From assembly GCA_000004985.1 (NCBI GenBank), contig GG738913.1: DNA of 64,000 nt. One strand, given 5' to 3'. The translations under genes were made by a program, and so were the position numbers. Under the pieces are notes generated by a model. It made no database searches, had not been told where the DNA came from, and was given only the letters and a program-made list of their open reading frames with translations. Below are positions 1,220-47,443 of this stretch, piece after piece. Each line of letters starts with the position of its first letter. Position 1 is the first letter of the stretch. The DNA is from Naegleria gruberi (lineage: Eukaryota).

Positions 1220-1411
1220 GGTGTTGGTTGTGAGCGGGTTTTTTTTGGTCTAGTTTTGAATTAATTGGATTCTCTTTGATCTTGTAAAAGGAGGAGTTGA
1301 ACAAGTCCTCAAGTTGAGTGTGTGGAGGACTTGATAATCCGCTAGATAAATAAACCGATTCGAAAGTTTACAATTATTTATTAGTTATGTAGAGCATGTC
1401 CACGAGACGAT

Positions 1412-3043
1412 CTATTGAATATCAATATAGGCATATTTCTTCTTCTTTCTTAAACAGAGCCAGAATCCAAGTGCAGTAAGCAAAACAGCCACCAGAACGA
1501 ATGCAGCAGCCAAACAAACTCCAATAATTACTGGAACTCTCCAATAAGGTTGAATAGAAGAGGAGAATTTGTAAGTTGAAATAGTATCATTTGAGGTTGT
1601 GTCAAAGAGGAATACCACTTGTTGGACATCACTTCCAATTTCTTTAGAAACTGCATCGCTGGAGCAGAATTTGATTGAATTGGATCCAACTTGAGCAATT
1701 TGCTTTTCAGTATAGCTTGATATTGTTGGAAGGGTTGGATTGTTAATATTGGACTTTTGTTGTAAAGCATAAATAGCTAATGGGCTACCAGAAACGGTGC
1801 CATCAAATGTAATGCAACTGTCATCGTGAGTTTGTGCAATCAAGTAAACTGGACTCGCAGAAGTAATAGATCCAGATAATTTGGTTCCATCAGCAAGTGT
1901 TGAAATGAATGGTTTTGGTGGAATTGTCTTTTTGATATTACCATAAACAATAATGAGAGAATTGTTAAAAAGGAGATTGTTTGACATATCACAAACCATC
2001 TGTCCATCATTATCAGATGATGGAATAATTGGTGAAATTACAGTTCCAAATTGATATCCACTTCCAATAGTACTTCCACAAGTTATTGAATTTGCTTGAA
2101 TTTTCACTTCGTTTCCATTAATATCCTTCATGTTATCAAATTGATACCAGAATGAGAATGTGCTTTCAAGTTTCTCCAAATAGTGAGCATCATAAAACAT
2201 GTAAGCTCTCAAAACAACAAGCTCATCTTGACTATTTTGATATCTAGTGTCAGCAATATCTTTTGGATTAACATTTGATGCAGGAGCCAGCTCAAATTGA
2301 GGAGATGCTGTTCCATCACAGATTGGTTGTTGTTTTGGGAATGCAAGAGTAATCACTCTATTCCATTGATTACCAGTTTGTAATGAGTAACTGGATGGAT
2401 AGGAAACATCAATCCACTCATTCAATGAAATTTCCTTTGGTTTTGGAGTATCGTTAGGTGAAACATCCAGATAAAATTCATTTCCACCTTCAGACAATGA
2501 AACTGCCTTTGCAAGATTCAATTCAAAACTCAATTTCCTGCAATTTCTTGTCAATTTTCCATATTCATCTCCTTGAACTGAAAGAACATGTTCCGCTTCG
2601 CCACTACCAATAATAGTTACATTCATTTGACTCACATCCCTATTGAAAATTCCATCCAATGTCATTATATCCACAAAAATCTTTTCTTGTCCAGTGAAAT
2701 TTGCATCAAATTTGAAATGTCTCAAATATGAAAATTTAGAAATTGAAAATGTAAAATTTGTATCATGATCGGTAGTAGTAGTAGGATATTCATAAAACAC
2801 TTTCATCAAATAAAAGGAAGGAAGTGGTTGATTGTAAACAAATGTAGCAGATTCCATTGTATTATTATTCAGAGGTAAACTATTCTGCTGATCAATTTGA
2901 TAGATCTTTCCCATCTCGGCAGCAATCTCCTCTCCGTTCGCCACCACCACCACAAACTGATGTGTAAAACTCAAAGCTAAAACCAAGACGCAAATCAACA
3001 AGTGGTGGGTACCAATTGCAATTCGGTGATGATGTTTACACAT
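1412..3043 (-). CDS. Type I membrane glycoprotein of unknown function, with a signal peptide, large N-glycosylated ectodomain, one C-terminal TM helix and a KKKK stop-transfer.
   Basis: The ORF track starts at 3175. The likely true start is the aaaaaaaATG at 3041-3043 (MCKHHHRIAIGTHHLLICVLVLALSFT, a signal peptide). Many NxS/T sites. C-terminal VPVIIGVCLAAAFVLVAVLLTALGFWLCLRKKKK. Confidence 0.5.
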   Translation of the reverse strand: MCKHHHRIAIGTHHLLICVLVLALSFTHQFVVVVANGEEIAAEMGKIYQIDQQNSLPLNNNTMESATFVYNQPLPSFYLMKVFYEYPTTTTDHDTNFTFSISKFSYLRHFKFDANFTGQEKIFVDIMTLDGIFNRDVSQMNVTIIGSGEAEHVLSVQGDEYGKLTRNCRKLSFELNLAKAVSLSEGGNEFYLDVSPNDTPKPKEISLNEWIDVSYPSSYSLQTGNQWNRVITLAFPKQQPICDGTASPQFELAPASNVNPKDIADTRYQNSQDELVVLRAYMFYDAHYLEKLESTFSFWYQFDNMKDINGNEVKIQANSITCGSTIGSGYQFGTVISPIIPSSDNDGQMVCDMSNNLLFNNSLIIVYGNIKKTIPPKPFISTLADGTKLSGSITSASPVYLIAQTHDDSCITFDGTVSGSPLAIYALQQKSNINNPTLPTISSYTEKQIAQVGSNSIKFCSSDAVSKEIGSDVQQVVFLFDTTSNDTISTYKFSSSIQPYWRVPVIIGVCLAAAFVLVAVLLTALGFWLCLRKKKKYAYIDIQ

Positions 3044-14300: not shown

Positions 14301-17300
14301 TCGAAAGGTTTTCAGTAATGGAACAATCACCACTATAGCTGGAACTGGAAGCATAAATTATAATGGAGATATTCAGGAGGCAACTTTAACAACTCTTAAT
14401 TCACCAAGAGGAGTTTACATGTCACCAAATGAAGATGAAATTTACATTGCCGATTCGGGAAATAACTTGATTAGAAAAATCAAACTTGATTGTCCATCAG
14501 ATTATGAATTGGACAAGAGATTGGGAGAGTGTGTGCAAATTGTCAAGTGTTTTGGTATTTTGGCCACCGACAACTCAGTTTGTTCTGGAAATGGACAATG
14601 TGTCGATGGAAGCTGTATCTGTAACAACCAAACCTTTACAGGGCCTAACTGCTCTAGTATCACTTGTTTTGGAAAAGTACCTTCAGATTTGATGGTTTGT
14701 AGTGGAAATGGTCAATGCGTTACAGCAAATAATTGCTCATGCCTTTCTGGTTATGTTGGGAATGAATGTCAAGCGAATCTGAATCCATTCTCCATCGAAT
14801 TGTTGAGAAATGAAACTATTTCCAATAATTATAGTTATCAGATTAAGGATAATGGATTGAATATGACAAATTATTATTGGACATGCCAGAATTGGGATCC
14901 AAATATTTCAATTTCAACAAGTGGAAGGAATGCATTCGTAACTTTCAGTTCAGCTTACTCTAAAGTGTATCTGTTGTCGGTTTATGCTTCAATTCCCAAT
15001 TTCAGCCCATATCCTCCAAGAATTTCGAATACTATCCTGTTCACTATTATTTCCCCTAATGTTACCATTCAGCCAAGTTTCAATCAAACAACCAATGAAA
15101 CTCTACAAAATAACCAGACAGTGAACTCAAACCAAACAACAAACAATTCATCCATTCCCGTTCAAAATAATCAAACAATAGCAAACGAAACATCCACTAA
15201 TTCAAACAGTACTGATACCAAAAGCGTTAATATTTCAGGAAAGTTGGGAGTTTTTGGTCTTCCCTCGGTTTTGGTTTCAAAACAGATTGACGTTTCAGCA
15301 GTAATTTCTAATATTTCACTGAACCAAACTTCTATCAATTCGTTCCTATCATGCACTCCTAATTGTACATTAAAAATTTCATATGAATGGAAAATCAATA
15401 TTGATAACAACCAAGCAGCCAATCAAACTGGTTTTACCACTTCCATTTCTTTAGGTAATAATTTGATGAGCTTTAATCCACCAATTCAAATCCAATTCAG
15501 TACAAGTAATGTAAAAGGAGAGAAATTCACACTTTCCCTTGCCCTTTTTTCAAACAATGGAAATATTTCATCGAGTACAAGTATGGATATCGTTACCCCA
15601 GTCCAACCACCAACAGCATCTAATTCCACAACTTCAAAATCATCAAATTATTTAATGAGTGTCAATCCAGAGAAGGGAGTTGCCCTGAGTGACTCATTTT
15701 CAGTTAGTGTCGCATCATGGAATGCACCATCACAAATTCTTCCTCTCAAATATGCTATTGGATTTGTTTCTAATGGAAAGGACGTGAGATTTACAGATTA
15801 TGCACAAACTACTTTGTTCAATATTTACCTTCCTTACTTGATCCAACAATCCAGGGGTCAAGTTTCAGAAATTCAACTCTATCTCTATGTTATGGATGCA
15901 ATTGGAAATGTTGTAACATCTCCAACTGGACTCTCCATTTCAGTTTCTCCTTTTAATGGAACTTCTAGTGAATTGGTCCAAAAAATCAACGAGCTTGGCA
16001 CTACTTCACTAGTAGTTGCATCCTATGATAAATCCTATACAGTTCTCTCAAGTAGTGGAGGAAATTCAAGTGAGTTAGTGTATGAAATTGTGAAAAATAT
16101 TCAAATTGATCCAAAGAATCCAGAAACTGCCCTCACATCCATCACCAGTCTTACATCCACTACGAGTGTAATTAATGAAAATATTGTGAGTGAAGTAGCA
16201 AGTAAGATCACCTCGTTTGTTGATAATGTGAAAGATATCTATGCATACGAAAAGAGAGTATATGGATTTGTCAAAAGCAAGGTTTCACCTGACAATATTC
16301 TCTCTACTGTGACTATTACTTCCAACCTATTAGCAAGTGGAGTTGATAGCGAGAAAACTGTTGGCGTAGTTGATAATGTTGCCTCAATGGTATTGTTAGC
16401 AGAAATTCCAAAACTTCTCACAAGCTCTGAAAAGCTCCAATACATCTCATTCACAACTGGTATGGTGAATATTACAGTTTCTAGTTTCAAGATGACCTCT
16501 CCAATAGAGGGTAATCAACTAATCGAGGAGGAGAACAATAAGGTATCTGCAAATTTGACAAGTATCATGATGGAATATGGAACCTTAAATAAGGAGTGTG
16601 GTCTATCGATGGTCTCCTACACAAAGAACATGAAGTTTGACAATTACACATCAAATACTATTCATGCTTCGAGTATTAACGATTTCAAATTCATTCAAGA
16701 GCAAAATATTGTACGACTCGATAATCTCGAGCATCCAATTGTGCTATCATTCAAATTATCTCATATTCCACAACAAAACAGTTCAGTAAATTCCACATTC
16801 TCCTGCAGATATTGGGATGAAACTAATAAGATATGGAGCGATAGAGGTTGTCAACTTTCCAATATTGACCTGAATGCTGGCACAGTAGAATGTTCATGCA
16901 GCCATACTACAATGTTCACAACATTTGTAGAACAAAAGACTACCAGTATTATGATAGCAATGAAAGAAGAAGTTGCAACATTATATTTTGTACAAATAGC
17001 TCTTGGTGCTGTTTATACTATTGTTGCTTTGGTAATTATTACTGGTTTGATAATATTGAGAAAGGAGCAACCAGTAACAAGTAGACTTATCACCCCATAT
17101 GTAGGAATGGTGGCTCTCATTGCAGAGAGTGTGTTGATTTACATTGTCCAAAGAAGTGTCCTTGTGAGTCAGCTCCTTTCCACAACAGATCCCAAAGTAT
17201 GGGAAGTTGGTGATAATGCTGCCAATATTATTGCAAACAGTGTTGCCATTGTTGTGAATACTTTGAATTTGACTGCTACATTGTGCTATGTGATGCAAGT

Positions 17301-18732
17301 TTCCAGATTCCAATTCCTTAAACATTTGTACAAGCTCTTGTCCGATAATAGATCAGATATGGCAAAGAATGCCAAGATTTTGAAAGTCCTCAAATTGATA
17401 ACCTCTCAGAAAATATTCTTTTCAATTATTGCAATCTTTGCCGTGTTGAATGTTTGTTTCTGGACTCTTTGGGTTGTTCTAGTAAGGACACAAGTCATTG
17501 ATGCCTCTACCTATACCTATATTGTATCATCTTGTTACATTACTTGTATTCTCTTCTTTGGAGCAGTTATTTGCATTGTAGCCATTGCTGATTGGATTAT
17601 TTCCACCAAGAAACACGTAACAGCAGGTCAGGAAAGAAAGAGAAAGACTGTCAGTTTCACCACTCTCAGCTCTGAACCACGAGAATCCATCAAGAAGCGA
17701 CTCTTCTCTCCAAAACAACTCTACGAATGGTTAATTCAAGTTGATGAACCACTCTATTTCCGATTCGAAATGCTCCTCTACATGATTTGCTTTGTCTTCC
17801 AAGTGTTAAATCTTGCCATTGGCTCCTCCAGTCTTTCCTACCGATATGCTGACTTGGATTCATACAAGAAAGCACTTGCTCTCGATGGAATCTCCTTCAT
17901 CTTTGAAGTACTCTATGTGGTGAGTTACTTGTTTGTGTTTGGTGGTTTTGCTCTCTTGATTGCCATATTGTACAAGTACAAGAAGAAGAAACAACATGAT
18001 GAAGCCTCTACTTTTCTCATCAACAAATTGAATGGTGGCAACAATAACAAGGTCGACGAAGGAATCATGAGTGAGGAGATGAGGGATGTGCTAGATAAGA
18101 ACGAAGGCTATCTATTATTCGAAGCCTTCTGTGAGAAGGAATTCTCTCTAGAAAACCTCTACTTGTACTCTGACTTGAAAGCCAATGAAACCATCACCAA
18201 AGGAAGACAATTCACCAACCTAACAACCTTCATGAGATTCATCTTTAATAACTACATCCGAACAGGAAGCACCACAGAAGTGAATATACCAGCCAAGTGT
18301 AGGAATAACTTTTTACTTGTCTATAAGAATGTAGCATCAAGTAGTGAACATATGCAACAACAATTGGGAATTGCTGAGAAGGTGAGTAGGAGTGAGGTGG
18401 AAAGACTCGATAGGAATCTACAGGTGGTTATCAAGAATGATCAAGTAGCTACTTTATCAACTAAAACAACAACTACAACTTCTACTAATGAACAACAACA
18501 ACAAGAAGGAAATATCAAATCTTCATCGCCAGTAGCTGCTGTAGAAAATGTTGATCATGTGGTGGAGGGTGTTGTTTCTGCCTTTGAATTCCTCTACAAG
18601 CAAACATTGGTTAATTTGGGTGATACCTTCTCTCGATTTGTCTTTACGAGTGAATACAAGGAATATTTGGCTTCATTGGAGGCTCAGAAGGTTGTTACGG
18701 TGGAAATTATTGCTGCCTACGGAGATGTTTAA
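11359..18732 (+). CDS. Giant adhesion-GPCR-like receptor of about 2440 aa: signal peptide, about 20 NHL repeats, EGF-like Cys modules, Ser/Thr/Asn-rich stalk, GAIN/GPS motif, 7TM, C-terminal RGS domain.
   Basis: Exon 1 is 11359..11497 (MSALKQVKIAALLLNLLIISWCLNVFG signal peptide). A 45-nt intron at 11498..11542 (GTAGGT..AG) preserves phase. Exon 2 is 11543..18732. NHL motifs (YxADxxNxRIRKI) repeat throughout aa 50-950. EGF-like CxxxxxCSGNGQCV appears twice. The GPS motif is CRYWDETNKIWSDRGCQLSNIDLNAGTVECSCSHTTMFTTF. Seven hydrophobic helices follow. The RGS core is LLFEAFCEKEFSLENLYLYSDL...FIFNNYIRTGSTTEVNIPAKCR. Confidence 0.6.
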
Positions 18733-19003
18733 TCATGTTGTTTGTCATTATGTGATGAAAAGCCTTGAAAAATTTGAGATGAAGATTTTCAGACCATTTT
18801 TTGTGAAAATAAAATTTTTATTATTGTTTTAAATTTGATGTAACGGATTAATTAATCTGTATTACAAAATCTTGACAATTTCAAAGCAAGTAGGCCAATT
18901 ATGTTTCCATTTAGGAAATTCAAGGAAAATTGTACATTCTAATTTTCCGAAATTAATTCGACGCCATACTAAAGACAAGCTCTAAAATGGTGATGGAAAT
19001 TTC

Positions 19004-19351
19004 ATGCATTCTATTCAAATCATTTGTTTGGCCATATTGAAAAAAATGCATTTAAATCTCTTGAGTGTTTCAGTTCCTTTGATTTGTGGTCTTTTATCGT
19101 TTGTTTTATTTCCTGTAACATCTGACAGTTTGAAACCCTTCTTGATAATTGGAATATTGCAGTGTTTTGCATTTGTAGCTTTGTTTGTGGTTGATGTAGT
19201 AACTTGTTTTTGGAAGGATTTTGTGTTGGTTGGATTTATTTTTGCAGTGGGACTTGCTTTGTTTTATAGAAATGATATTTGTTTGATGAGTGACAGGAAT
19301 GCATTGCTTTCGGGATGGTGTCATATTTGTCTTTCTCAAGGATTTTACTAG
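19004..19351 (+). CDS. Small 3-4 TM hypothetical protein (115 aa).
   Basis: ORF with three or four hydrophobic helices. No homology recognised. Could be a non-coding chance ORF. Confidence 0.25.
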   Translation: MHSIQIICLAILKKMHLNLLSVSVPLICGLLSFVLFPVTSDSLKPFLIIGILQCFAFVALFVVDVVTCFWKDFVLVGFIFAVGLALFYRNDICLMSDRNALLSGWCHICLSQGFY

Positions 19352-19417
19352 AAATATTTCAATATTCCTTGATGGATTAATTAATGCTAGAAATTATTTA
19401 TTGAAATATTGAAGAAA

Positions 19418-20825
19418 TTATTGAGCTGGTTTATTTGATCTTAGAGGAGACTTGGAAGCTGTAGTTGTCTTTCTAACACCCAAAACTGAGGAAGGTGTTG
19501 AACCAGTTGATCTCTTTGTTGGTGAGCTTGCTTTGGTTGTTGTAGTTGTTGTCGAAGACTTTTTAGTTGGAGAAGAGGATGGTGACCTAGTGACTGATGT
19601 TGGTTTCTTTACTCCCAAACTTGAGGATGGAGTTGTTGTAGTTCTTGTTTTGGTTGGTGAGACAGATTTGGTGACTGTTTTAGAGACTGTTGGTTGACTT
19701 GATACAGTTGTGGTAGGCTTGGTTGTTGCAGTAGTTGACGAACAAGAGCTACCTTCCTTTGCAATTAAATTCTTAATTGCTGTTTCCAATTCCTTTTGGC
19801 TAAATCCTTCAAGACGCTTTGATTCCTTTCCATGGTGGAAGAGCTTGAACGTTGGTAAGCAGCTAATACGTTCCTTAGAAGTGATAGAGTAGAGTTTTGA
19901 TGTATCTACTTTGATAAATTTAACTTTTTGATTACTGAAAGCTAATTTGCTGTATGGAGTTGCACAAGCAACACAAGCTCCACAATTATCTCCATAATAA
20001 TCTGCAACAACTAGAGAATTATCCTTGAGTACGTGATTATATTCCTCCTCACTCTTGACATAGGTAACAAATTCATCACTCGATCCAGCCAACATGTCCT
20101 TCTTCAAATATTCCTCAGATGGAGAATCAAAGTGTAATAAGCATTCCTCCATTTCATAAGAAGATCCACCAATTACAGTTTCCTTCATTTTTCCATTGTA
20201 GAAAAAGACAAATGTTGGCATTGCATGAACATCACATTTAGACATGATCTTTCTATGTTCATCCACATTGACTTTCATAAAGGTGACATCTGTATGTTTG
20301 GCAGCTAAACTCTCAACATATGGAGTGATAGCCTTACAAGGACTATTAAAGGTACATTAATAAAAAGGAAAGTCAAACAGAAACATACCCACACCAATCA
20401 GCATAGAAATCAACTACAACTTTGGTTTTAGATTTGATTGTATCATCAAAATCTTTTTCCTTAACAATATGAAGGATTCCATTTTCGTAAAATGGTGGTT
20501 CAAGTTGCTTTGCTAACATGTCAGCATTTCTTGATACAATGGATTCACAAAGACCATCCAACTTTTGAACAACTTCTCCTTGGGAAATAAAGAGAAAGGT
20601 CGGAAGACACTTGGCTCCATATTCATCAGCAATGCCACTAAAATTATTAATATCCACCTTAGCAAAATTAACCTTTGGTTTTTCAGAGGCCAATCCCTCA
20701 TAATTAGCATCATAGTCTCTGCAAACACCACAATAAGGTGATGAAAAGTAAACTACAACTGATGGATTTTTAGCGATCAAACTACGAAACTCTTCTTCGG
20801 ATTGAATCTTTGTAAAATTGGTCAT
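19418..20825 (-). CDS. Multi-thioredoxin-domain protein with three TRX-like domains (CGVC, WCGPC and CGAC) and a C-terminal Ser/Thr/Pro-rich mucin-like tail.
   Basis: Exon 1 is 20825..20389, starting MTNFTKIQ at an aaATG and ending DFYADWCG in phase 2. A 46-nt intron lies at 20388..20343 (GTATGT..TAG). Exon 2 is 20342..19418 and completes WCG-PCKA. Classic thioredoxin motifs. The tail is TTATTKPTTTVSSQPTVSKTVTKSVSPTKTRTTTTPSSS. Confidence 0.6.
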
Positions 20826-21140
20826 TTCTATTGATTTATTACTCTCTATAGATTTTAATATACAACAATGCAGTATTAGAAAAAAGATCAAAAAATCGTT
20901 CCTTCCAATGTCTTGCTATTTTTTTTGATGATTAAGGGGAGATAAGGCTCAGAGAGAATGAACTTTAAAATTTACAGAAAAAAAAAGTTCATCTCATCAT
21001 TCGCCATCATCATTAATTTATTCATTTATTTTAATTATAAATGATGAAGTAATAATATTAGTTTTTATGATCGGGATGTATTGGAATTTATTTGCTTAAT
21101 GAGATTATTTACAATAAGAGTAGTAACTTTTCTCTTGAAT

Positions 21141-21728
21141 TTAAACTTGTTGATTTTGTTGAAGAGTTGGATAATGAACACCAATTGGATTGGTTGTGTT
21201 ATAAACAACAGGAACTTGAGTAATGTATTGAGAAGGCATGACTTCTTCCTCTCTCAACATTTGATGAGAGTCTTGCTTTTGAATTGTAATGGAATATCCC
21301 TTCTTCTTCAAAATGATAAAAGTAATTCCAGCTCCACAGGCAAATGTCAAGGAAATCATTGAAATGAGACAACCCAAGAATGTGAAAATCATACCGAATG
21401 GGAATCCACGACGACGACCACGTTGATTTGATTCTCCATCACGATTGTTGTTATCATTATTTTGGTCTTGAGCTGATTCAGGATGCTTATTTCCTTGTTG
21501 TTGACCTTGTTGCTTTCCATCTTGTTGTTTCTTTGGTGGTTTGTTTTGATGGTTTGGAGGCATATTCTTATTAGAATCAGAACCAGATTGTTCATCAGGT
21601 CTTGGTGGCTTACCACCAGAAGGCATTGGTGGTCTTGGTTTGTTATTAGAATCTTGATTTTCTTGAGCGAAAGCAAAAGTCAAAATGAGCAAGAATGCAA
21701 TAGCAAGGAGAAGAAATTGTCTAGACAT
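21141..21728 (-). CDS. Small secreted, membrane-anchored Pro/Gln/Asn-rich protein (195 aa).
   Basis: N-terminal signal peptide MSRQFLLLAIAFLLILTFAFA. Low-complexity PRPPMPSGGKPPRP / QQQGQQQG region. C-terminal TM helix (IFTFLGCLISMISLTFACGAGITFIIL). Confidence 0.4.
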   Translation of the reverse strand: MSRQFLLLAIAFLLILTFAFAQENQDSNNKPRPPMPSGGKPPRPDEQSGSDSNKNMPPNHQNKPPKKQQDGKQQGQQQGNKHPESAQDQNNDNNNRDGESNQRGRRRGFPFGMIFTFLGCLISMISLTFACGAGITFIILKKKGYSITIQKQDSHQMLREEEVMPSQYITQVPVVYNTTNPIGVHYPTLQQNQQV

Positions 21729-22052
21729 GTTGTTGATTCTTTTTGTTTTGTTGATTGAAAGATATTACATGTTCAGATTTTGAATTTATAGCTCTGAAAT
21801 TGGAACTGCTCGTCCGAACTGTCACCAAATGTCACTTCGTTCCAAATAGATGAAGTACTTTGGATTGCGGATTTAGAGTTCCTGTGAATGTTCCATTCAG
21901 TGGAAGATGTTCAGTTGATGAAATAGTTGTTCCTCCTCCAGATTTCAATAAATTTTATATTTTATTTATTATTTTGATGGATGGCAATAACGAAATAGTT
22001 GAATGAAGTAAGGGAATTGTAAATGGGTTAAAGTTTTATTTTATTATGTACA

Positions 22053-25000
22053 TTATTTATCATTACTTGGACTGACAGGAGTGGCAGCAGTGACACCAAT
22101 AGAACCAAAGCCACCAACATCAATCTTCAAGAAGGATTTACTCTTCTTATCGTCATTTTCCAATCTCTTTTCAATCCATCCAATAATTTCAGTATTATCA
22201 CTTTGAATGGCAAGTTGTAAAGCTTGTTCAAGTGAGACAGCTCCAATTTCACACAAATACTTGACAACATTCAATTGAACACGTTTGATGGCCATTTCCA
22301 AAGGTGAAACTCCATTCAATGTCTTGATAGCACTAATGTCAACTTTCAATGGTGAATCAGCTGCTGGAGCGAATTTACCATGGTAATTTCCATTTTCAAC
22401 TAATAATTTAACAACGTTTGGATGTCCATAACCAGCTGCAAAGTGGAGTGGAGTCAATTGTTTGTCTTCTCTTGTGTTGATGACTACTGAACAGTCACAA
22501 CCCTTTTCAATGAGATATTGAGCACAGTCAACTCTGCCACTGATAGCACACAAGATAATTGGTCTCATTTGCAAGTCGTGTCTAGATTGATCAACTGAAA
22601 CATTGTACTTTTCAACAAGCAACTTGACAGCATCCAAATTACCATTCTTAGTAGCAGCATGAATTGGTGGATAGGAATTTTCAGTGTACGATTCTTCATA
22701 ACTTCCACAAGGATCCAATTTAACTTCATCAATCAAATATTCAATAACACTGACATTTCCTCCATAAGCAGCAGCTGAAAGAATTGTTTCGGCTCCCTCT
22801 GTAACAGCACCACTGTTAGCACCCTTTTCAATGAGCTTCTTGACAAGCTCAACTTGAGAATTTTGAGCAGCAAAATAAAGTAATGATTGACCCAAACTAT
22901 TGGAGAAGTTCAAAATGTTTTCCTCAGATGGGTTTTCAAGAGCTGTTTGAACAATCTTGGCACCGACGTGTCCTGGCAAATCCTTACATTGAACAGCAAG
23001 GAAAATTGGTAAATCCTTTCCACCAGAACGCTTTTGACAGTCAACTCCATGGTCAACCAAGAAAGAAGCAGCAGGTGGGCAGTGCAACATGCAATTGTGG
23101 AGAGCAGTATATTCTACAGAGTCAGCAGCACGTTTTTCACTTTCATTGACAAGATTGGTCAATTCTTCACTTGTCAACAAGTTAGCATTCAAAATTAATG
23201 GAATGGCATTCATGTTCTTTGCTCTGATAGCCAAATGCAAGAAGGTTGATGAAGAGTGCATTCCAGAAACAGTGCTACCAATATCGAAACGAGAGAGGGC
23301 AAACTTTGGAACTTTGGAGAAGAGAGTCTTCAAGATGACTTGACATTTTTCCAAACAGAATTCATCATGGAATTGAATTCCAGAAATTACAAATTCAATC
23401 AAGAGATTTCTCAAATTTTCCTTCACTTCACCATCAGAATTATCATCAGATGGTGGAGCAATGAATTCAGAAGCCAATTCTTGTAAGTGGGTTTCAATGG
23501 CTTCAGTAGTGACCAATCCAATAGATCCTGTTTGAGTATTATCACCAATGATACTCTTTCCAATTGAAAGCCACTTGGTCACGAGTGGATTATTATTAAT
23601 GGTGAAGAGAACAGATTGATTTGCTGTTGAGCTAGTTGGAGCCAATGGATTGGAAGGTGCATTCTTGTAACCTGGAGTGGCTAATCTTTCATTGAAAGAG
23701 TTCAACAAGGTAGCATTCATCAACTTTCTAGTATTTGAACCAATCAATGAAACCAACATTGCAAATGGACTCATCTTGCCATACTTTTTCAATTCTTCCA
23801 ATTTAATATTACCATACTTGGAAGCTTCACTTTCTGTAATCTTGTCAACATTTCGTTTAGTTCTAAAGAACAAATTACCACCTCCTCTCTTGAGCAAAAT
23901 CTCCAACATTCTTCCATTTTGATTGTAAATGGCATAGTGCATTGGTGTCCAACCAGCATCATTCTCAACATCAACTTGAGCATCTTCATAAACCAATTTT
24001 GTAACCAAATCAAATTCATTTTCACGAGCACACAAATTCAATGCAGTAAATCCACCATTCTTATCAATTTGATTAATGTTAATCTTACTTTCCTTCTTCT
24101 TTTCCAAGATCATACTCAATAATTCTTCACGTGGTTTCAATTGACCTCCAGAACGTGGTGAAATGCCACGAGGAGACATTCCTCCAGATCTAGGTGAAAT
24201 GGATGAACTAAATTCAGCTGTACCAGAAGTATTTAAACTCAATCCAGGAATATCACTTGCAAGTGTTGAGCTAGCAGTTGCTGTCGAAGAATTTTTACTG
24301 TCAGCAAGTGTCAAATCTCTTGAAATGGCAATGAAATGCAAAGCAGTTTGATCCAAACGATTCTTCTTATTAAAATCAACCCCATTATCCAACAAGAACT
24401 TGGTCAATTTCAAATCCTGATTCTTCACAGCAATATGCAATAAAGAATCCTTGTCAACATAACCCATTTGTGTCAATTGTCTAATTTCTTCACTTGTCAA
24501 ATATTGTTCATCTTCTTCATCATCTGATAAATCTTCTTCTCTCAATCCAGGAGCAATTGTCATTCCTCTTGATGAAGGAGTTTTTGGAGTATCTTCTTTC
24601 GAATAATGTAAATAAGCTAATTTCGAATATTCTCCATTACCAATCAAACTACGAACGTCAGTAAAGGAATGTTGTTCGATCAATTTTACAACTTTGAGAT
24701 GAAGTTGAGTTTGAGAAGATTTCAATTCGTCAATTACGTTTTCAATGGCGTTCATCCATTCTTTACGTTGTTCTTGATTTTCGGCTGAGAACCAATAGGT
24801 GAAAGTGGTTGGGGAGTCTTCAGATTGGTTATTTGATCCTTCCTCATTGGAAGGAGCTGTTGTTTTTAAACCAAAGGTGTTTTCTATTGTTATTCGAAAG
24901 TAAAATTAATATTCGAAAAAAGGTAAAATGATCGAATAATGTGATGATTACTTACGGAAACCTTTGTGATTTTCAATATCTACAATAGTAGAAAAACGAG

Positions 25001-25297
25001 TTAATGGAATCTTTTCTTCATGTTTCTTATCAACTTTCTAAAATCAAATTATTCGAAACTAGACTAAATACAAAAACTTACTTCACTGTCTTTAAAACAC
25101 AACATCTTCCTACCTGTCAAGACTACAAATCTTTTATATGATGACTTTTGAAAGAATTTCTTTTTCGAATTTTCCAAAACGAGTTTTCCACTCTTTTTCA
25201 CACGACCAGCAAATCCAGAACTTCCAACAGCTGAAGCAGCAGCAATTCCAGAAGTGCTGATGGATGTGGATGGAGCAAGTAAGTCAATGGTTGACAT
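22053..25297 (-). CDS. PH-domain / ankyrin-repeat protein of about 1000 aa, in three exons.
   Basis: Exon 1 is 25297..25082 (MSTIDLL...KDSE, phase 0). Intron 1 is 25081..25038 (44 nt, GTAAGT..TAG). Exon 2 is 25037..24956 (KVDKKHEEKIPLTRFSTIVDIENHKGF). Intron 2 is 24955..24884 (72 nt, GTAAGT..TAG). Exon 3 is 24883..22053. The assembled N-terminus is a PH domain ending FTYWFSAENQEQRKEWMNAI. More than 15 ankyrin repeats follow (TALHxAxxxGHxxxVxxLLxxGA pattern). Confidence 0.6.
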
Positions 25298-26893
25298 GTT
25301 TTTTTTTTATGTTTGATTTTTGTGTGTTGATGGATGACTGATGGCAATATTGAAAAGTTTTTACATGACAGGAGATGGAAATAGTACATTGTTGGAGGAT
25401 GAACATCTTTTGCTTGAAGTGAAAGTTTGAGAATGATAAGGATTTGTGTTATCCTAAAGTGATTATGTATTCGATTCGAATGGTGTGAAATTTCATATGG
25501 AGGAAGAACCCATTCAATTTAAACAAATAATAATTATTAATTTTGTTTTAAGTTTAAACTACTATTTTTGAATGCATCTTCAATTCTCTTCAATTCTTTG
25601 CTATGCTTCAATGGTTTGCTTCTTGCATTTCTTTCAAATTTTAAACAAACATAATAAAAGTAAATTATTTCTGAATTTTGTTGAATTCTGATTGAATATG
25701 AGGAATGGACTTTTTTTCGATTGTAAATTACAAAATAAAGTGAAAATATTTTGAGTTGCTTAATAAGCGACCTCAATTCCGAGTTGTTAACAATTTTCCA
25801 TGCTCAAAAAATTATTCAAATGTCTGGAAATAACAAGAAAGGAACTCCACAAAGGAAACAACACACTGTATCATCTCCATCTCATCCTAAACAAAGAGTG
25901 GACCCACTACTCCCTCCCAAAAACTGTTGCGCTCATTAATCTTTGGTAAGGGATTAATTTCTGAGTGAGGTTTTTATCAATATTTCGGAAACATTGTAAA
26001 ATTTTCTTTATTTCACTAACATTTCTTTCTCATATTCGCATTTATCGTTGGTCTGACGTTTTTTTTCTTATCCTTAGGATAATGATATTATCTCAAGACC
26101 TGCTCAATAAAGATTTATATTCTTCAAAGCAGGTTCCAGACTGTTTCACCATTAAGGTGAACAGTCTCTGAGCTTTAATACCCATTTGTTTTTATTAATT
26201 TGCAATGTAACATAAGCTTTATGGTGCTTAATGGTTCCTGGCAATTCAGAATAGTCCAACGACAAACCCGTTGCACTTGAATGTTTTGCTGCATACCCTT
26301 CTATTAATAAGAAAAGTTATGATATTAATACATTGAAACCAGCCATTCAATTCTTTGCAGACGTGGAAGGTTGGCAACTCAATGTAGCTGGTAGTTTTTC
26401 AAGAGTTAAGAAAGGTCTTACTAAAGCCTACTATATTGTGGATCGTTCTAAACTCAAACGTAATGGTTTCTCTTCTTATGATATTAAATCATATGTTGAT
26501 TCGATTTCATCACATAATGAATATAGTATTGATAATAATCTAATAAATATTCGTAAAGTGATTTGACTGTATTCCTTACTCAAACACATTTTCAAATAAT
26601 ATTATCCAATCCGAGATTTATCCAAAAAGCCAAGCCCATAAAAATTCAACCAGATTGCCCTTTTTAATTAAGCCATAATATATCCAAAAAAAGCGGTTTG
26701 GATTCTGGATACTAATTCTAGGAATCAGGATTTTATTTTCAATTATAATAGTCAAGTGAGAACAAGAGGAGCACTATTCTCGATAATACATAATACAAAT
26801 GCTTCAACTAAGAGTGAATCAAATGAATGGACATTTAAAAATTGCTTTGAGCAATTTAAATTGAACTGTAAATATATTGAAGAAACGTTAGAT

Positions 26894-29800
26894 CTATTGG
26901 AGAACCTTTTTACAAGTTTGATATATATTATCCAAACTTTCTGCCATGTGTGATGAATCTGTTGTTCTGGAAATATTGCAAATTTCTCTCAGGGTTTGTT
27001 CATATCTCAATAATTGTGCCCTCATGGACTGATTTTCAAACCTCAAAGCATCCATTGTTGAACTTTTCAATTGTAATAATCCTTTCAATAGATCGACATG
27101 TGTAAAATGTTTGGTCGGCTCCTTTAGAATTTCTAATAGATTATTCATAATTTTGAGATAATGAATACATTCTCCTCTGTGTGTTGAACGAGATTGGATC
27201 ATTGTAATTAAACACCTTCCAAGAATATCATTGAATAGCACCTTTTCCAAAAAAGAATTAGGATGGGAGCAAATAACCTCAAGATTTGGATCTATAAACT
27301 TGTCAATTTCCTTTCTAATAGATTGATGAAGCATGGCCTCTCCTTGTGGAGTACTTAATAACTTGAAAAAGTAATTTTTTCCAACTCCAAATAAACAAGA
27401 TGAACCAGAATCTTCATTCGTTGATATAATACTCAATGTTCTGTTGCAGATCATTTTCATTAAGACACATCCCATTGAGTAAGTGTCACAATTCTTTGAG
27501 ATTTTGAAATTTTCCGTTTGTTTGCCTTCTTCCTCATCATAAACCTCTGGAGCAAGATATTACCATGTCCCTATATTCACTGATATTGAGTGGTTGGATT
27601 GAATAACTTTGGAATTGTCAAAATCAATGAGTTTGGCATGTCCTTCATTGTTGATTATTACATTTGCCAACTTTAAATCTGTACAAAATTTCAGTATTGA
27701 TTTTGAAAACAATAAACATACCTCTGTGTGTGAAATTTAGATTATGCAAACTGATGACACCCTCAAGAACTTCAGTAAAGTACTGTAAAACTTCAATCAA
27801 ATCTTGAGTGGATAAGCAATGCTCCAAATTTAAATAATTTTGGTGCATTTCTGACATTACATGATCCAAAGGAGATCCCATTTCCATAATTAAATAGCTA
27901 TACTTGCTATTATGCAACTCATAAAAATTACATTCAAATGTTTTGACAATACCCTTCAAATTTGGTGTTTTCTGCATTTAAAGTTGTGAGTTAATGGAGT
28001 ATGAGGTAGGAGACTTTTTACGGGCAATTTTTCAACAATTTCTTCAATCCTACCGTCTCTAACATATTGATAGAGTTGAAATAGAAATTGAACATCCTCT
28101 CTAAGTTGTTCGGTCTCTAGGACGTAATTTAAAATCTGTTTGTTCTCATAAAGTTTGTTAATTTTTACACAGTCCAAAATTAGTTCAGTATCCAATTTTT
28201 TAGTCGAGTAGAGGATGGCCAATCCAAAAGTTTTGGTAGCTGTCAAGATAATATTTGAATCGCTTTGTAGGGAATTTGATGCAAATTTCAAAAGTTCACC
28301 TTTTTTCTCAATGAGTGGAGTGATAAGATTCTTTCCATACTTGAATTTTTCAGAGGCGAATTGAATGGAAAGTGGATTTTGAGCAATCGCCATCTGAACT
28401 ATTTGTAAATCCTCTTTGAAAATACCTGGAACTATTTCAAGAAGCAATCCGTTCCTTTCTACATATTCCAATATCTTCATTTTGTCGTTTTTCAATTCTC
28501 TAGAAGCATATTCGAAAGAATAATAGTTTTGAGAAACTGCAAGATCAACTATTGTAGGATTATTCCTCAATCTTTCAGATGCATACTTTAAAGATAGTCC
28601 TCTCGATTTTACAGCAATAGAAACGAGACTTTCATCATCCTGAAAGGAGTTTGGAAGAAATTCCAAAGCATATCCATTAAATTCGAGCAACTCCTTCATT
28701 GTTTCAATGCTTACAGTATTCCAATCTGTAAATTTTTGGAGAAGCATTACATTTCTTTCTGTCAATTCTTTTACAGACATATTTTCCTTCATTTCCAAGT
28801 TTAAATAAGAAAATTCCTGTTTCATCAAGAAATTAATAAACACCTGCAGTGCTGGGCAATCAGTTTTGATTCGAATAAAGTGTTCTAAATAATCCATGCC
28901 ATGGATTATGTTATTTTTCGTAACCTTGTTACCAATACCGCCTCTACTAGTTTCACTTTGAGGAAATACCAAAGCCAATAGAAAATAGTATTGAACGGCC
29001 ATTTCTGATGTTGTTATGGCTACTGCCTTCATATCATCAATCAACTTTTCAATAATTTCAAAAGTATAACTTTGTGAAAGGTTGTTGATATATCTGAAAA
29101 CGATATCGACTCCCAAAATTGTTAGATTTGAAATCATACTTCTTATACTGGAACGATAGTCCATTGCTAGGAACCAGTAATTAATGTTCTTCCAATAAAT
29201 TTCCTTTAACAATTCCAAATTACAACAATTTCTTGATTTCTGTTGAAACATTTTCTTGAAACAAAACTCAATTAATTCAAAATCTTTTTCATCTTGAGTA
29301 GTTTCTACAAATTCTCTAAAAATACTGAAAGATTTGTTAAGGTTACGAATTGACTGATTGTAATATGTTTGTAAGAGCATTGCTTTAAATCTTAAAGTTG
29401 CTTCCTTGGATAGTATTTGACTAATTACACCATTTTCGTCCAACAACATGCTGCATTCCGTGAGAGAGCAATAGCAATGTAGATCTTTTGATTCTTTAAC
29501 TAGCATCAATGCATCAAGAATATCTAGTTGTGTTACATGGGAAATAAAAATGAAATTGTCAATAGATATTCTTTCGTTAATAGAAATGACCTCTTGCGGT
29601 AGGTTTCGAATGCTCTTTTGTCTAAGATTCAACAATTTAAGCAGACTGGGACCAAAATATTTACCTTCATCATCGTACACAATTCCTGAATCACGAAATT
29701 GTTTCTTAGCTGATCCATCACTATTAAATAAAATTGAGGAATATTGAGAGTGGACCAAACCTTTAGTCAGCACAATATAATTCTTTTCATCTAACATCAT

Positions 29801-30934
29801 GAGTTCTCTAATGTCATATCCAAAATCCAATGGATCTGTATTTGTTTCATAATCCATTAATAAATTGAATGCTTGATGAATTTTATCATCCATGATAAAT
29901 TGAAAAGCTTTTTGAATTATTGAATGATCTTTTTTGGTTGGAATCTTAATATTTGGATGTGTGAATTTCATAACAATTTGAGTAGTAGACTTGTAATTAG
30001 TGATTCCTTCGATAGTTACAAATAGTCCATGAATGGTTTCTTGAATATTAGTGAATTTTGTTTGTTTCAATTTTGAACCTTCTTGGTGTTGGCTCATTAA
30101 TTCTTCTACAGTCAATGTCTGAAATAAATCAACACTTTTGTCTTTGTTAATATTGTAAAATTGTAATGTTTTTCCATCATGTGAAATACAGGAAGCTAAT
30201 ATTGGTTGACAAATTGAAATTCTCTTAAAAAAATAACCATTAAAAGTGATATCATTCTTTTCAATATTTGAAATCAATTGAGCAACAACTTGAATCTCTG
30301 TCTTTCCATTTCTAATATCGGCTTCATCTCCATTCAACACAATCTCTTTCAAAATTGTTTCGGTTTTGTAATCATACACTACATACACATTCCTAAATCT
30401 CAATACCATACTATTTGCGAGAAAAATCAATGAATCACATCTTTTAGATTCAAATTTCTCCAAATTAAATCTTTTTTCAAAAGATAGAAATAAAAAAGTC
30501 ACTGGTAATTTTCTGTAAACTGTAAATCGAAATTCCTTTCCCCAAACAATACAAAAAGAATCGTCTAAACTTTGTAAAGGAATTCTTCTTGTACAAGAAA
30601 TCAATTCTCCTGTTTCTTTCTTTTGGAAAATGGAATTTCTTTCCTTTAGTGTAAAATCCAAATCAGATCCAGTCTTCTGGAATGCGTTACCCTCAAATTT
30701 AATTGTCAGCTCTTTTCCTAAAGCTGAAAAACTGTAAGAAAAGAGTTGTACAATAGAATTCACACCTTCACCTTGTAAACTTTTATCAATTACTGTTGAG
30801 TAATGAACAAGCAACATTCCTTTTTCTTCATGACATTCAATTTTTTGAATGGAACAAGTTTCGGGTGAATTTTCTTGGAATAAATGTTGGTGGTGAAAAC
30901 TTACCACAAAATAATTCCCAAATTTGTTCCACAA
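26894..30934 (-). CDS. Large protein with C-terminal DUF4116 repeats followed by a protein kinase domain (HRDLKLAN, DFD). It carries one in-frame TAA at 27562..27560.
   Basis: A 992-aa ORF (30934..27956) holds DUF4116-type repeats (FASExFKxDxxxxLxAV...) in its last about 250 aa. The kinase exons are 27977..27722 and 27678..26894. The intron between them, 27721..27679 (43 nt, GTATGT..CAG), reconstitutes HR|DLKLANVIIN. The splice upstream of 27977 is uncertain; one candidate is donor cccGTAAAA with acceptor tgCAG. The activation segment reads GTW-TAA-YLAPEV. Confidence 0.5.
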
Positions 30935-31815
30935 ATAACTTGCTGATATTTTGAATCAAAGGTTGAACAAGTAATCGAGCCATGTTGTGCGGAATCAAAG
31001 TGAAAACATTGGCAAGTTTTCATTAGTGGACCTGATGTCATTTTTTACTAATAATTACAACGCGGTCATGTTTAAAAAATCTTATTTTTGGTTCACAGTT
31101 TGGAATTTATTTTTCATGTGATGAACACCAAATTGTGAAAGATCTGATTCAGGAAAACAGTCCTTCGAACTGAATTCAATGAACCCAATTCGAGTGAATT
31201 CAGATGCCTGCCCAACAGGTTATGGAATTACAATTGAGGCGACAATGTTACGGCAATTTCCTCTAAAAGGAGAGGTTATGGAGTCGTAAAAGAACTCTCA
31301 AATTGCCAGAGACCTCTACAAGATCTTGATGAGAAGAAAATGGTCGATTTCAAAGGAGAACAATTATGCAGTCGTTTAACATCCCAAGAACTACTTGATT
31401 TAGTTCAGACAGAATTTGGAGAACACTCTATGGACGGATTCGTGAATTAACCACAACAATTCAGTTCAACTCATGGATAGAGAACGACACATTCTTGAAT
31501 CCTTGGGAACAAAATCTAACGAGTTATTGTGTTCCTCCTTTGGGCTAATTTCTCAAGCTCTAGTTCACTGCATAAAGTCAGAACCCCCCGACAGTTCCAA
31601 CAGTTGTTTCTTTTACAATATCTCTATATTAGATATTGCAAAAGAAACAACTATTCCAAACTAATCATTTTGGTCAAGTTTTGCTTCTGATTATTGATGA
31701 TATTGATTAATAGACCAAACTGGAAACCGATTCTGAAACTAATTTCCCTGAACGCCGTAAAATCTGTTATCCGAAACTCACGAATGTCAAGTAACCATTC
31801 AACATCCGTTAAAAA

Positions 31816-47372: not shown

Positions 47373-47443
47373 GGGGCGGTGGTGTAATGGTAACATCGCA
47401 GCCTCCAAAGCTGTGGCCGGGGGTTCGATTCCCCCTCGCCCCC
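47373..47443 (+). tRNA. tRNA-Trp (anticodon CCA).
   Basis: Cloverleaf folded by hand. Acceptor GGGGCGG/TCGCCCC. D-arm GTGT-AATGGTA-ACAT. Anticodon stem GCAGC/GCTGT with loop CTCCAAA (anticodon CCA at 47405-47407). 4-nt variable loop. T-arm GGGGG-TTCGATT-CCCCC. Discriminator C. Confidence 0.85.

What the first reader, a model, noticed from the sequence alone, without database searches (positions are those of the whole stretch)
27476..27722. Single in-frame TAA inside the kinase activation-segment motif of the DUF4116 kinase (GTW-stop-YLAPE)
Across about 4 kb this gene is open in one frame (allowing two mapped 43-50-nt introns) except for one TAA at 27562..27560. That codon falls exactly at the variable 'x' of the conserved GT-P-x-Y-[LM]-APE motif, and the frame continues undisturbed afterwards (YLAPEVYDEEEGK...). 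HRD, DFD and APE are otherwise all present. A one-base substitution (CAA/GAA/AAA/TAC to TAA) is enough. Possibilities are a base-call error, a very young nonsense allele or pseudogene, or programmed readthrough. TAA is clearly a normal stop elsewhere in this window, so global codon reassignment is excluded.
Basis: seen in the sequence. Interest (0 to 1): 0.5.

Follow-up and report, generated by a model that had tools for sequence, protein, structure and literature searches.

The report
Stop codon in a deletion-broken kinase
The stop codon is really in this Naegleria gruberi sequence, but it lies in a kinase gene copy already broken by a 903-base deletion that removed the ATP-binding half, so it is most likely an ordinary second hit in a decaying gene copy and not a recoding signal.

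Summary
The window is Naegleria gruberi NEG-M. The TAA at 27562..27560 (minus strand) is there and reads GTW*YLAPE. The gene is not otherwise intact.

A 99%-identical metagenome contig (L001) carries 903 bp that the window lacks, exactly at 27972/27971. That DNA encodes a linker, a real 41-nt intron and the kinase N-lobe (glycine loop GKGAQG, VVLK lysine, alpha-C region).

In the window the upstream DUF4116 frame runs out of frame into the remnant and stops at TGA 27958..27956. The reference annotation already splits the locus into two models, NAEGRDRAFT_74392 and 74391.

Every intact relative with DNA available has GAA (Glu) where the window has TAA. These are L001, L003 and L002. A second NEG-M copy on an 8.9-kb contig (NAEGRDRAFT_76621) also has Glu there.

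The remnant also carries three private missense changes. TAA ends 17 of 24 long ORFs in the window.

Verdict: a nonsense mutation in a deletion-disabled allele or pseudogene. Readthrough is not supported. A base-call error cannot be excluded without reads, but it would not change the biology.

The parts
27560..27562 (-). In-frame TAA in the activation segment (GTW*YLAPE). It is GAA (Glu) in intact relatives, so it is a single G-to-T change at 27562.
   Evidence: The aligned codon is GAA in L001, L003 and L002. Glu is present in P0002, P0003, P0005 and P0036.
27971..27972 (-). Deletion junction. 903 bp present in the intact gene (L001 about 971..1873) are missing here. There is 2-nt GA microhomology at the junction and an AACTTTA 7-mer near both breakpoints.
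   Evidence: BLAST blocks: L001 1..970 matches window 28940..27971, and L001 1872..2849 matches window 27972..26995. Junction sequences. The 903-bp segment is found nowhere else in the window.
27972..28021 (-). It is spurious. This stretch is coding sequence (VKSLLPHTPLTHNFKCR) in intact copies, and its apparent acceptor is the deletion junction.
   Evidence: P0006; L001 spliced ORF.
27956..27958 (-). TGA that ends the upstream DUF4116 reading frame five codons after the junction (...NFKCR-KHQI*).
   Evidence: It is the stop of the annotated model P0001 / NAEGRDRAFT_74392.
27956..30817 (-). Annotated CDS NAEGRDRAFT_74392 (953 aa): an N-terminal region plus DUF4116 repeats, truncated by the deletion frameshift.
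   Evidence: P0001 is 100% identical and lies on a 236,320-bp scaffold.
28153..28708 (-). Four DUF4116 repeats.
   Evidence: Pfam PF13475 E=1.6e-36, 4 stretches. Coordinates are computed from residue positions.
27722..27971 (-). Kinase remnant, first part (KTPNLKGIV...LHNLNFTHR, subdomains IV to VIb). It carries the private changes R-to-K at 27943 and S-to-L at 27832.
27679..27721 (-). Genuine 43-nt intron (GTATGT...GTACAG) that splits the HR|D codon. It is conserved in L001, with 2 substitutions.
   Evidence: The P0002 model splices it as THRDLKL.
26894..27678 (-). Kinase remnant, second part (DLKLAN...DFD...GTW*YLAPE...C-terminal tail...TAG). It contains the TAA and the private T-to-S change at 27583.
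26894..27454 (-). Separately annotated 186-aa model NAEGRDRAFT_74391 (MICNRTLS...KKVLQ). It is the tail of the remnant downstream of the TAA.
   Evidence: P0035 sequence. Accession and 236,320-bp scaffold.

Best explanation
The window carries a disabled copy of a Naegleria gruberi DUF4116-linker-Ser/Thr-kinase gene. It is most simply one haplotype of the heterozygous NEG-M genome.

Shown: compared with an intact gene at the same locus in a closely related strain, this copy has lost 903 bp. The lost DNA comprises 287 codons plus 1 nt of coding sequence and a 41-nt intron. It covered the linker and the kinase N-lobe: glycine loop, VAIK-type lysine and alpha-C.

Shown: because the lost intron had carried the frame change, the deletion puts the upstream DUF4116 frame out of register with the remaining C-lobe. 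Translation from the gene's start ends at TGA 27958..27956.

Inferred: the 3' kinase remnant is therefore untranslated or useless and is drifting.

Shown: the remnant carries three private missense changes and one GAA-to-TAA transversion.

Inferred: the order of events (deletion first), and that the small NEG-M contigs holding intact-type sequence are the other allele.
For: Organism and annotation:
- P0001 is 100% identical to the window and is labelled N. gruberi.

The deletion:
- L001 aligns at 99.6% and 99.1% on either side of 27972/27971 but has 903 extra bp between.
- After removing 41-nt and 43-nt GT..AG introns, L001 gives one open 921-codon frame. It has DUF4116 x4 and Pkinase profile positions 5-241.
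- The window's kinase match starts only at profile position 68.

Same locus:
- L001 abuts L004 from the same sample (about one base short of meeting on window coordinates).
- L004 continues collinearly through the window's downstream genes for 10 kb at about 98% identity.

The codon:
- It is GAA in L001, L003 and L002.
- Glu is present in P0002, P0003, P0005 and P0036.

Drift in the remnant:
- The window differs from P0002 at 4 of 252 remnant codons (K, L, S, stop). L001 sides with P0002 at all four.
- Upstream, the window differs from P0006 at 1 of 270 codons.

Second copy in the same assembly:
- Intact-type sequence lies on an 8,914-bp contig (NAEGRDRAFT_76621) and a 1,525-bp contig (NAEGRDRAFT_77043). 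The latter spans the left breakpoint.

Reference annotation and background:
- The annotation already breaks the locus into 74392 and 74391.
- TAA terminates 17 of 24 long ORFs here.
- Naegleria is described as a mainly heterozygous diploid, and heterozygosity is reported for N. gruberi (PMC9928731).
Against: - No reads were available, so neither the T at 27562 nor the deletion junction is independently verified in NEG-M.
- The DNA of the two small NEG-M contigs could not be fetched. Their allelic status, as opposed to a paralogous one, is inferred from protein identity only.
- The counts are too small to prove relaxed constraint statistically (4 versus 0 private protein changes).
- The P0002 model leaves the expected frame after ...STHRG, so the 'intact' NEG-M copy may also have a C-terminal problem or a modelling artefact.
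- A GT..AG stretch that would restore the frame does exist (28021..27972). Use of it as a cryptic splice is not excluded by sequence alone.
Confidence: 0.85

Rival explanations
1. Only the T at 27562 is a base-call or consensus error. The haplotype truly has GAA, but the copy is still disabled by the deletion.
For: It is a single base, all relatives have G, and no reads could be inspected.
Against: The same roughly 400-bp stretch carries three other private substitutions that change amino acids. The haplotype is therefore truly diverged, and not just noisy at one site. By my recollection the reference is a multi-fold Sanger consensus; this was not checked here. Even if true, this rival changes nothing functionally, because the N-lobe is gone and the frame is broken.
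Confidence: 0.08
2. Both the deletion and the TAA are artefacts of the main scaffold, for example a rearranged or mutated clone used in the consensus. NEG-M would then have only the intact gene, now stranded on the 1.5-kb and 8.9-kb contigs.
For: Intact-type sequence sits on small leftover contigs of the same assembly. The locus in a related strain is intact.
Against: The 2-nt microhomology at the junction cannot drive a false assembly join. The window differs from the small contigs on both sides of the junction: T/F upstream, and K/L/S/stop downstream. That pattern is expected for two real haplotypes. Heterozygosity is reported for N. gruberi (PMC9928731).
Confidence: 0.05
3. The gene is functional. 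The 50-nt stretch 28021..27972 is spliced, and the UAA is read through or decoded as Glu, as UAA is in Blastocrithidia. The product would be a DUF4116 protein fused to a kinase C-lobe.
For: A GT..AG interval of the right phase exists. The frame is open after the TAA. The replaced residue is Glu, the amino acid that UAA encodes in Blastocrithidia nonstop (abstract of PMC12153298).
Against: - The product would have no glycine loop, catalytic lysine or alpha-C.
- The 'intron' is coding sequence in intact copies. Its donor GTAAAA differs from the GTAAGT and GTATGT of the two verified introns.
- No relative has a stop here.
- TAA is the main terminator in the window, and no long ORF contains one.
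- GAA is simply one of the nine sense codons or stops that are one step from TAA.
- The only tRNA in the window is Trp-CCA.
- No paper was found on readthrough in Naegleria.
Confidence: 0.02

Closest known systems
Disabled allele or young pseudogene with multiple lesions (deletion plus nonsense) in a heterozygous diploid genome
   Same: An intact counterpart exists at about 99% identity. The copy has a frameshifting deletion flanked by microhomology and a premature stop. Its few private substitutions are mostly protein-changing. The reference annotation fragments it into two models.
   Different: Only half of the gene is affected. The upstream 953-codon DUF4116 ORF is still open and could still make a kinase-less protein. 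Allelic status, as opposed to duplicate status, within NEG-M is not proven here.
Naegleria DUF4116-linker-kinase family (NAEGRDRAFT_76621, NAEGRDRAFT_74877, 'protein kinase' XP_002673831, N. lovaniensis C9374_005323 and C9374_005304)
   Same: Same architecture when the deleted part is restored: DUF4116 repeats, a linker of about 180-290 aa, a Ser/Thr kinase with HRDLK, DFD in place of DFG, G-T/K-x-x-Y-[LM]-[AS]-PE, and a C-terminal ITMIQ...coiled-coil tail.
   Different: The window copy lacks the linker and the N-lobe and has a stop at the second variable position of the activation-segment motif. Close relatives have Glu there. More distant paralogues have L, P, S, A or T.
Programmed stop-codon readthrough, or dual-meaning UAA (Glu/stop) as in Blastocrithidia nonstop
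   Same: An in-frame UAA with an open homologous frame downstream, and the ancestral residue is Glu.
   Different: There is no conservation of the stop, the context matches no readthrough context I know of, the upstream frame is broken, the catalytic N-lobe is absent, and UAA is the dominant terminator in the window.
Solved eukaryotic Ser/Thr kinases (CDKL3 3zdu, ERK2, JNK1, MST1/2)
   Same: The intact relative P0002 aligns over the whole catalytic core, E=5.5e-14 to about 1e-11.
   Different: It is only a generic kinase-fold relative at about 25-30% identity, and no specific subfamily can be assigned. The window copy retains only the C-lobe.

Membership tests
Eukaryotic protein kinase (Pfam PF00069), catalytically competent | Glycine-rich loop GxGxxG in the N-lobe | tested here: not met
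   The window's Pkinase match starts at profile position 68. GKGAQG is present in L001 and P0002 within the 903 bp missing from the window.
Eukaryotic protein kinase (Pfam PF00069), catalytically competent | Beta-3 lysine (VAIK) and alpha-C glutamate | tested here: not met
   The VVLKV and PERTEKLF segments of L001 and P0002 lie in the deleted DNA. The window has no counterpart.
Eukaryotic protein kinase (Pfam PF00069), catalytically competent | Catalytic loop HRDxxxxN and the Mg-binding DFG motif | tested here: met
   HRDLKLAN is restored by the 43-nt intron. DFD replaces DFG, as in all family members.
Eukaryotic protein kinase (Pfam PF00069), catalytically competent | Uninterrupted activation segment through APE | tested here: not met
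   GTW-TAA-YLAPE at 27562..27560.
DUF4116 repeat proteins (PF13475) | Repeats of about 49 aa scoring above the Pfam gathering threshold | tested here: met
   E=1.6e-36, 124 bits against a cutoff of 24.9, 4 stretches.
Programmed stop-codon readthrough | The stop codon is conserved at the same position in orthologues | tested here: not met
   GAA in L001, L003 and L002. Glu in P0002 and P0036, and other sense residues in paralogues. Two JGI metagenome scans found no further copies.
Programmed stop-codon readthrough | Leaky stop and stimulatory 3' context (for example UGA-CUAG, UAG-CARYYA) | tested here: not met
   The context is UGG UAA UAU CUU. The list of known contexts comes from my own knowledge.
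Programmed stop-codon readthrough | The upstream ORF is in frame and the extended product is functional | tested here: not met
   The upstream ORF ends at TGA 27958..27956, out of frame with the remnant, and the N-lobe is absent.
Programmed stop-codon readthrough | Ribosome occupancy or peptides downstream of the stop | not testable with these tools
   No expression data are available here.
Stop-codon reassignment (UAA sense) | In-frame UAA is frequent in conserved genes, and UAA is rare as a terminator | tested here: not met
   17 of 24 long ORFs end in TAA. ORFs up to 2,385 codons contain none.
Pseudogene or null allele | Disabling lesions relative to an intact close homologue | tested here: met
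   A 903-bp frameshifting deletion plus a nonsense codon, compared with L001 at 99% identity.
Pseudogene or null allele | Same genomic locus as the intact gene (an allele or orthologue, not a dispersed copy) | tested here: met
   L001 plus L004 are collinear with window 28940..15351. This holds for the related strain.
Pseudogene or null allele | The intact-type contigs within NEG-M are the allelic haplotype | tested here: inconclusive
   Only protein models were available (P0002, P0006), because the contig DNA is not retrievable. The search with the neighbouring ankyrin ORF returned no N. gruberi model at all.
Pseudogene or null allele | Relaxed constraint on the remnant | tested here: inconclusive
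   4 private protein-altering changes in 252 codons, against 0 on the P0002 lineage. The numbers are too small for a test.

The most novel reading that the evidence does not exclude
The deletion haplotype is not simply dead. It may be maintained because its still-open 953-codon ORF yields a kinase-less DUF4116 protein that modulates the full-length kinase made from the other haplotype. More exotically, the cryptic 50-nt splice plus low-level UAA-to-Glu decoding could give a DUF4116-C-lobe pseudokinase scaffold.
Probability: 0.04. Interest if true: 0.4.

Novelty: new member of a known kind. Interest (0 to 1): 0.12.

Why it matters
The value is mainly in annotation and method.
- NAEGRDRAFT_74392 and NAEGRDRAFT_74391 are two fragments of one disrupted DUF4116-kinase gene. 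They should not be counted as independent genes or as a kinase in the N. gruberi kinome.
- The intact form can be reconstructed from L001 and NAEGRDRAFT_76621/77043.
- The locus is a small, concrete example of haplotype-specific gene decay in a heterozygous, mostly clonally propagated amoeba. It shows a microhomology-flanked deletion followed by point lesions.
- It is a caution for sequence-only reading. A GT..AG interval that conveniently restores the frame can hide a deletion, and checking for HRD/DFG/APE alone misses a lost N-lobe.
- It has no bearing on recoding or readthrough biology.

Tried and rejected
- Very short GT..AG intervals that would skip the TAA (17 nt and 70 nt, starting at the GTAA of TGG-TAA). 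Inspected by eye on the sequence. They shift the frame into immediate stops and would remove APE.
- Exact-protein look-ups of window ORFs and of P0001 and P0002, to find independent assemblies carrying the TAA. Nothing is on record.
- Two JGI metagenome scans for the site, one exact and one degenerate at the codon level. Both gave 0 hits.
- Handing the stop-containing kinase sequence to the representative-library search. P0002 was used instead.
- A synteny test of the 8.9-kb NEG-M contig through the neighbouring ankyrin gene. The search returned the metagenome copy (P0026, on L004) and N. lovaniensis and Willaertia orthologues, but no N. gruberi model. It was uninformative for NEG-M but gave L004.
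- A suppressor tRNA in the window. Only tRNA-Trp(CCA) was found.
- Literature. PRJEB11402 could not be traced. No paper links DUF4116 with Naegleria. None reports readthrough in Naegleria. Fritz-Laylin 2010 and 2011 are not held.
- The 1,012-bp presence/absence segment downstream was checked for domains and repeats. Nothing was found.

Full report
**What is in the sequence**

On the minus strand the window reads ...AAT ATA GGG ACA TGG TAA TAT CTT GCT CCA GAG..., that is NIGTW*YLAPE. The TAA lies at 27562..27560. Upstream, a canonical 43-nt intron (27721..27679, GTATGT...GTACAG) joins ...NLNFTHR to DLKLANVIINNEGHAKLIDFD. Downstream, the frame stays open for 221 codons to TAG 26896..26894.

Pfam scores the conceptual product as DUF4116 (E=1.6e-36, four repeats) plus Pkinase (E=1.7e-25). 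The kinase match covers only profile positions 68-242 of 263. There is no glycine loop, no VAIK lysine and no alpha-C helix. The statement that the gene is otherwise intact is not.

**Where the window comes from**

A search with the conceptual protein returned one strong hit, P0001. It is 100% identical, labelled 'predicted protein [Naegleria gruberi]', and lies on a 236,320-bp scaffold. It is NAEGRDRAFT_74392.

The tail downstream of the TAA is annotated as a separate 186-aa gene on the same scaffold, NAEGRDRAFT_74391 (P0035). The reference annotation therefore already treats the locus as broken.

**The decisive comparison**

A search with the kinase part found these relatives:
- P0002 (NAEGRDRAFT_76621), on a separate 8,914-bp NEG-M contig. 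It is 98% identical, has a complete N-lobe (SKIGKGAQGIVFKC...VVLKV...PERTEKLF) and reads GTWEYLAPE.
- P0006 (NAEGRDRAFT_77043), on a 1,525-bp contig. It is identical to the window's DUF4116 part but continues ...NFKCR-DLYWTIL....
- P0004, from an ENA metagenome.

The contig of P0004 (L001, 2,849 bp, ERZ929261) aligns as follows:
- L001 1..970 matches window 28940..27971 at 99.6%.
- L001 1872..2849 matches window 27972..26995 at 99.1%.

The window span is 1,946 bp against 2,849 bp in L001, so the window lacks 903 bp. The junction reads ...AACTTTAAATGCAGA|AAACACC.... It has a 2-nt GA microhomology and an AACTTTA 7-mer close to both breakpoints. The missing segment occurs nowhere else in the 64 kb.

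**What the missing DNA encodes**

Removing two canonical introns from L001 gives a single open frame of 921 codons. The introns are 41 nt (GTAAGT..AAAG, L001 1162..1202) and 43 nt. The frame has DUF4116 x4 and Pkinase profile positions 5-241, E=4.7e-34.

The 903 bp comprise 862 coding nucleotides (287 codons plus 1 nt) and the 41-nt intron. They encode the linker and the whole kinase N-lobe.

The deletion is a multiple of three at the DNA level. It removes the intron that carried the frame change, so the upstream frame and the remaining kinase exon end up out of register. Translation from the gene's start ends five codons after the junction.

Three points count against it:
- Its 3' end is the deletion junction itself.
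- Its sequence is translated (PVKSLLPHTPLTHNFKCR) in L001 and P0006.
- Its donor GTAAAA differs from the GTAAGT and GTATGT donors of the two verified introns.

**Same locus, not a dispersed copy**

A second contig from the same metagenome sample (L004, 10,708 bp) starts one base after L001 ends. It completes the same C-terminus (...NIYQTCKKVLQ*). It then runs collinearly with window 26993..15351 through the PH/ankyrin gene and beyond, at about 98% identity.

In a closely related strain, the intact DUF4116-kinase therefore occupies exactly this position. The window copy is the same locus after a deletion.

**The stop codon itself**

The aligned codon is GAA in L001, in L003 (a 51-55% identical relative) and in L002 (a 38-42% identical DUF4116-kinase from a Logan assembly). 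Glu is also present in P0002, and in N. lovaniensis P0036. More distant paralogues have L, P, S, A or T at this position, as expected for a variable position. The window's TAA is therefore a derived G-to-T transversion at 27562.

Over the 252 remnant codons shared with P0002, the window differs at four positions:
- R to K at 27943
- S to L at 27832
- T to S at 27583
- E to stop at 27562

L001 agrees with P0002 at all four, so all four are private to the window lineage. P0002 has no private change over the same codons. Upstream of the junction, the window differs from P0006 at 1 of 270 codons. This pattern fits drift in a remnant that is no longer translated, but the counts are too small for a formal test.

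**Recoding and readthrough**

- TAA terminates 17 of 24 long ORFs in the window, and ORFs of up to 2,385 codons contain none. Reassignment is excluded.
- No relative shares the stop.
- The context UGG-UAA-UAU-CUU matches none of the readthrough contexts I know of (my own knowledge).
- The only tRNA in the window is Trp-CCA.
- Any product would lack the ATP-binding lobe.
- The coincidence that the lost residue is Glu, which UAA encodes in Blastocrithidia nonstop (PMC12153298), is explained by GAA being one mutational step from TAA.

**Allele, paralogue or artefact**

The same assembly holds intact-type sequence on two small contigs. These differ from the main scaffold by a few residues on both sides of the junction. 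That is the usual signature of a second haplotype that could not be merged across a structural difference.

Naegleria is described as mainly a heterozygous diploid, and heterozygosity is reported for N. gruberi (PMC9928731).

I could not fetch the DNA of those contigs or any reads. Two points therefore remain inferred:
- that the small contigs are allelic and not a recent duplicate;
- that the junction and the T at 27562 are present in real NEG-M DNA.

A 2-nt microhomology cannot cause a false assembly join, and private SNPs flank the junction. I therefore rate a pure artefact as unlikely.

**Family context**

The library-wide search with P0002 found 11 proteins at E<=1e-30. Those whose source I looked up are from N. 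gruberi and N. lovaniensis. They share this architecture: DUF4116 repeats, a linker, a Ser/Thr kinase with DFD in place of DFG, and a C-terminal ITMIQ...coiled-coil tail.

The closest solved structures are generic Ser/Thr kinases: CDKL3, ERK2, JNK1 and MST1/2, with E of about 1e-14 to 1e-11.

**Verdict**

The TAA is a real feature of the deposited sequence. It is most probably a genuine nonsense substitution, and it is a secondary lesion in a gene copy already inactivated by a 903-bp microhomology-flanked deletion. The finding is ordinary: a young pseudogene or null allele. Its main use is to correct the gene models and to show how an invented intron can mask a deletion.

Noticed in passing
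window 25466..26477: A 1,012-bp intergenic segment between the kinase remnant and the PH/ankyrin gene is absent from the collinear metagenome contig L004. The junction shows CAT/AA microhomology. The segment is unique in the window, and its small ORFs have no Pfam match. It is a second indel polymorphism of the same style as the 903-bp deletion.
   Followed up: partly
P0002 (NAEGRDRAFT_76621), corresponding to window ~27130..27170 (approximate): The annotated model of the 'intact' NEG-M copy leaves the window/L001 frame after ...SRSTHRG and ends RMYSLSQNYE*, which is the +1 frame of the window sequence. This implies a 1-nt indel in the 8.9-kb contig or a modelling artefact. That copy may therefore lack the C-terminal tail.
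   Followed up: no
window 27975..27977 (minus strand): The deletion junction places an ATG (from ...AAATGCAGA) in frame with the kinase remnant (MQKTPNLKGIV...). This gives a 110-codon ORF if the 43-nt intron is unspliced. It is probably meaningless.
   Followed up: no
window 27625..27633 (minus strand) and relatives: All members of this Naegleria DUF4116-kinase family examined have DFD instead of the canonical DFG Mg-binding motif (P0002, P0003, P0005, L001, P0038 and others).
   Followed up: partly
window 28202..28204 (minus strand): One codon in the last DUF4116 repeat differs in all three haplotypes: Thr in the window, Phe in P0006 and Ser in L001.
   Followed up: no
window 22053..25297 (minus strand): The 900-aa ankyrin-repeat ORF probably has an upstream exon that looks PH-like by eye (about 25064..25297). 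The N. lovaniensis and Willaertia orthologues are PH plus ankyrin proteins of about 1,000 aa. No N. gruberi protein model was returned for this ORF in the search.
   Followed up: partly
window 47373..47443 (+): tRNA-Trp (CCA) is the only tRNA found in the window.
   Followed up: no
window 30903..31041 (minus strand): A possible 5' exon (MTSGPLMKTCQCFHFDSAQHGSITCSTFDSKYQQVICGTNLGIILW, followed by GTAAGT) lies upstream of the annotated start of NAEGRDRAFT_74392. I found no convincing in-frame acceptor, so the true start of the gene is unresolved.
   Followed up: partly
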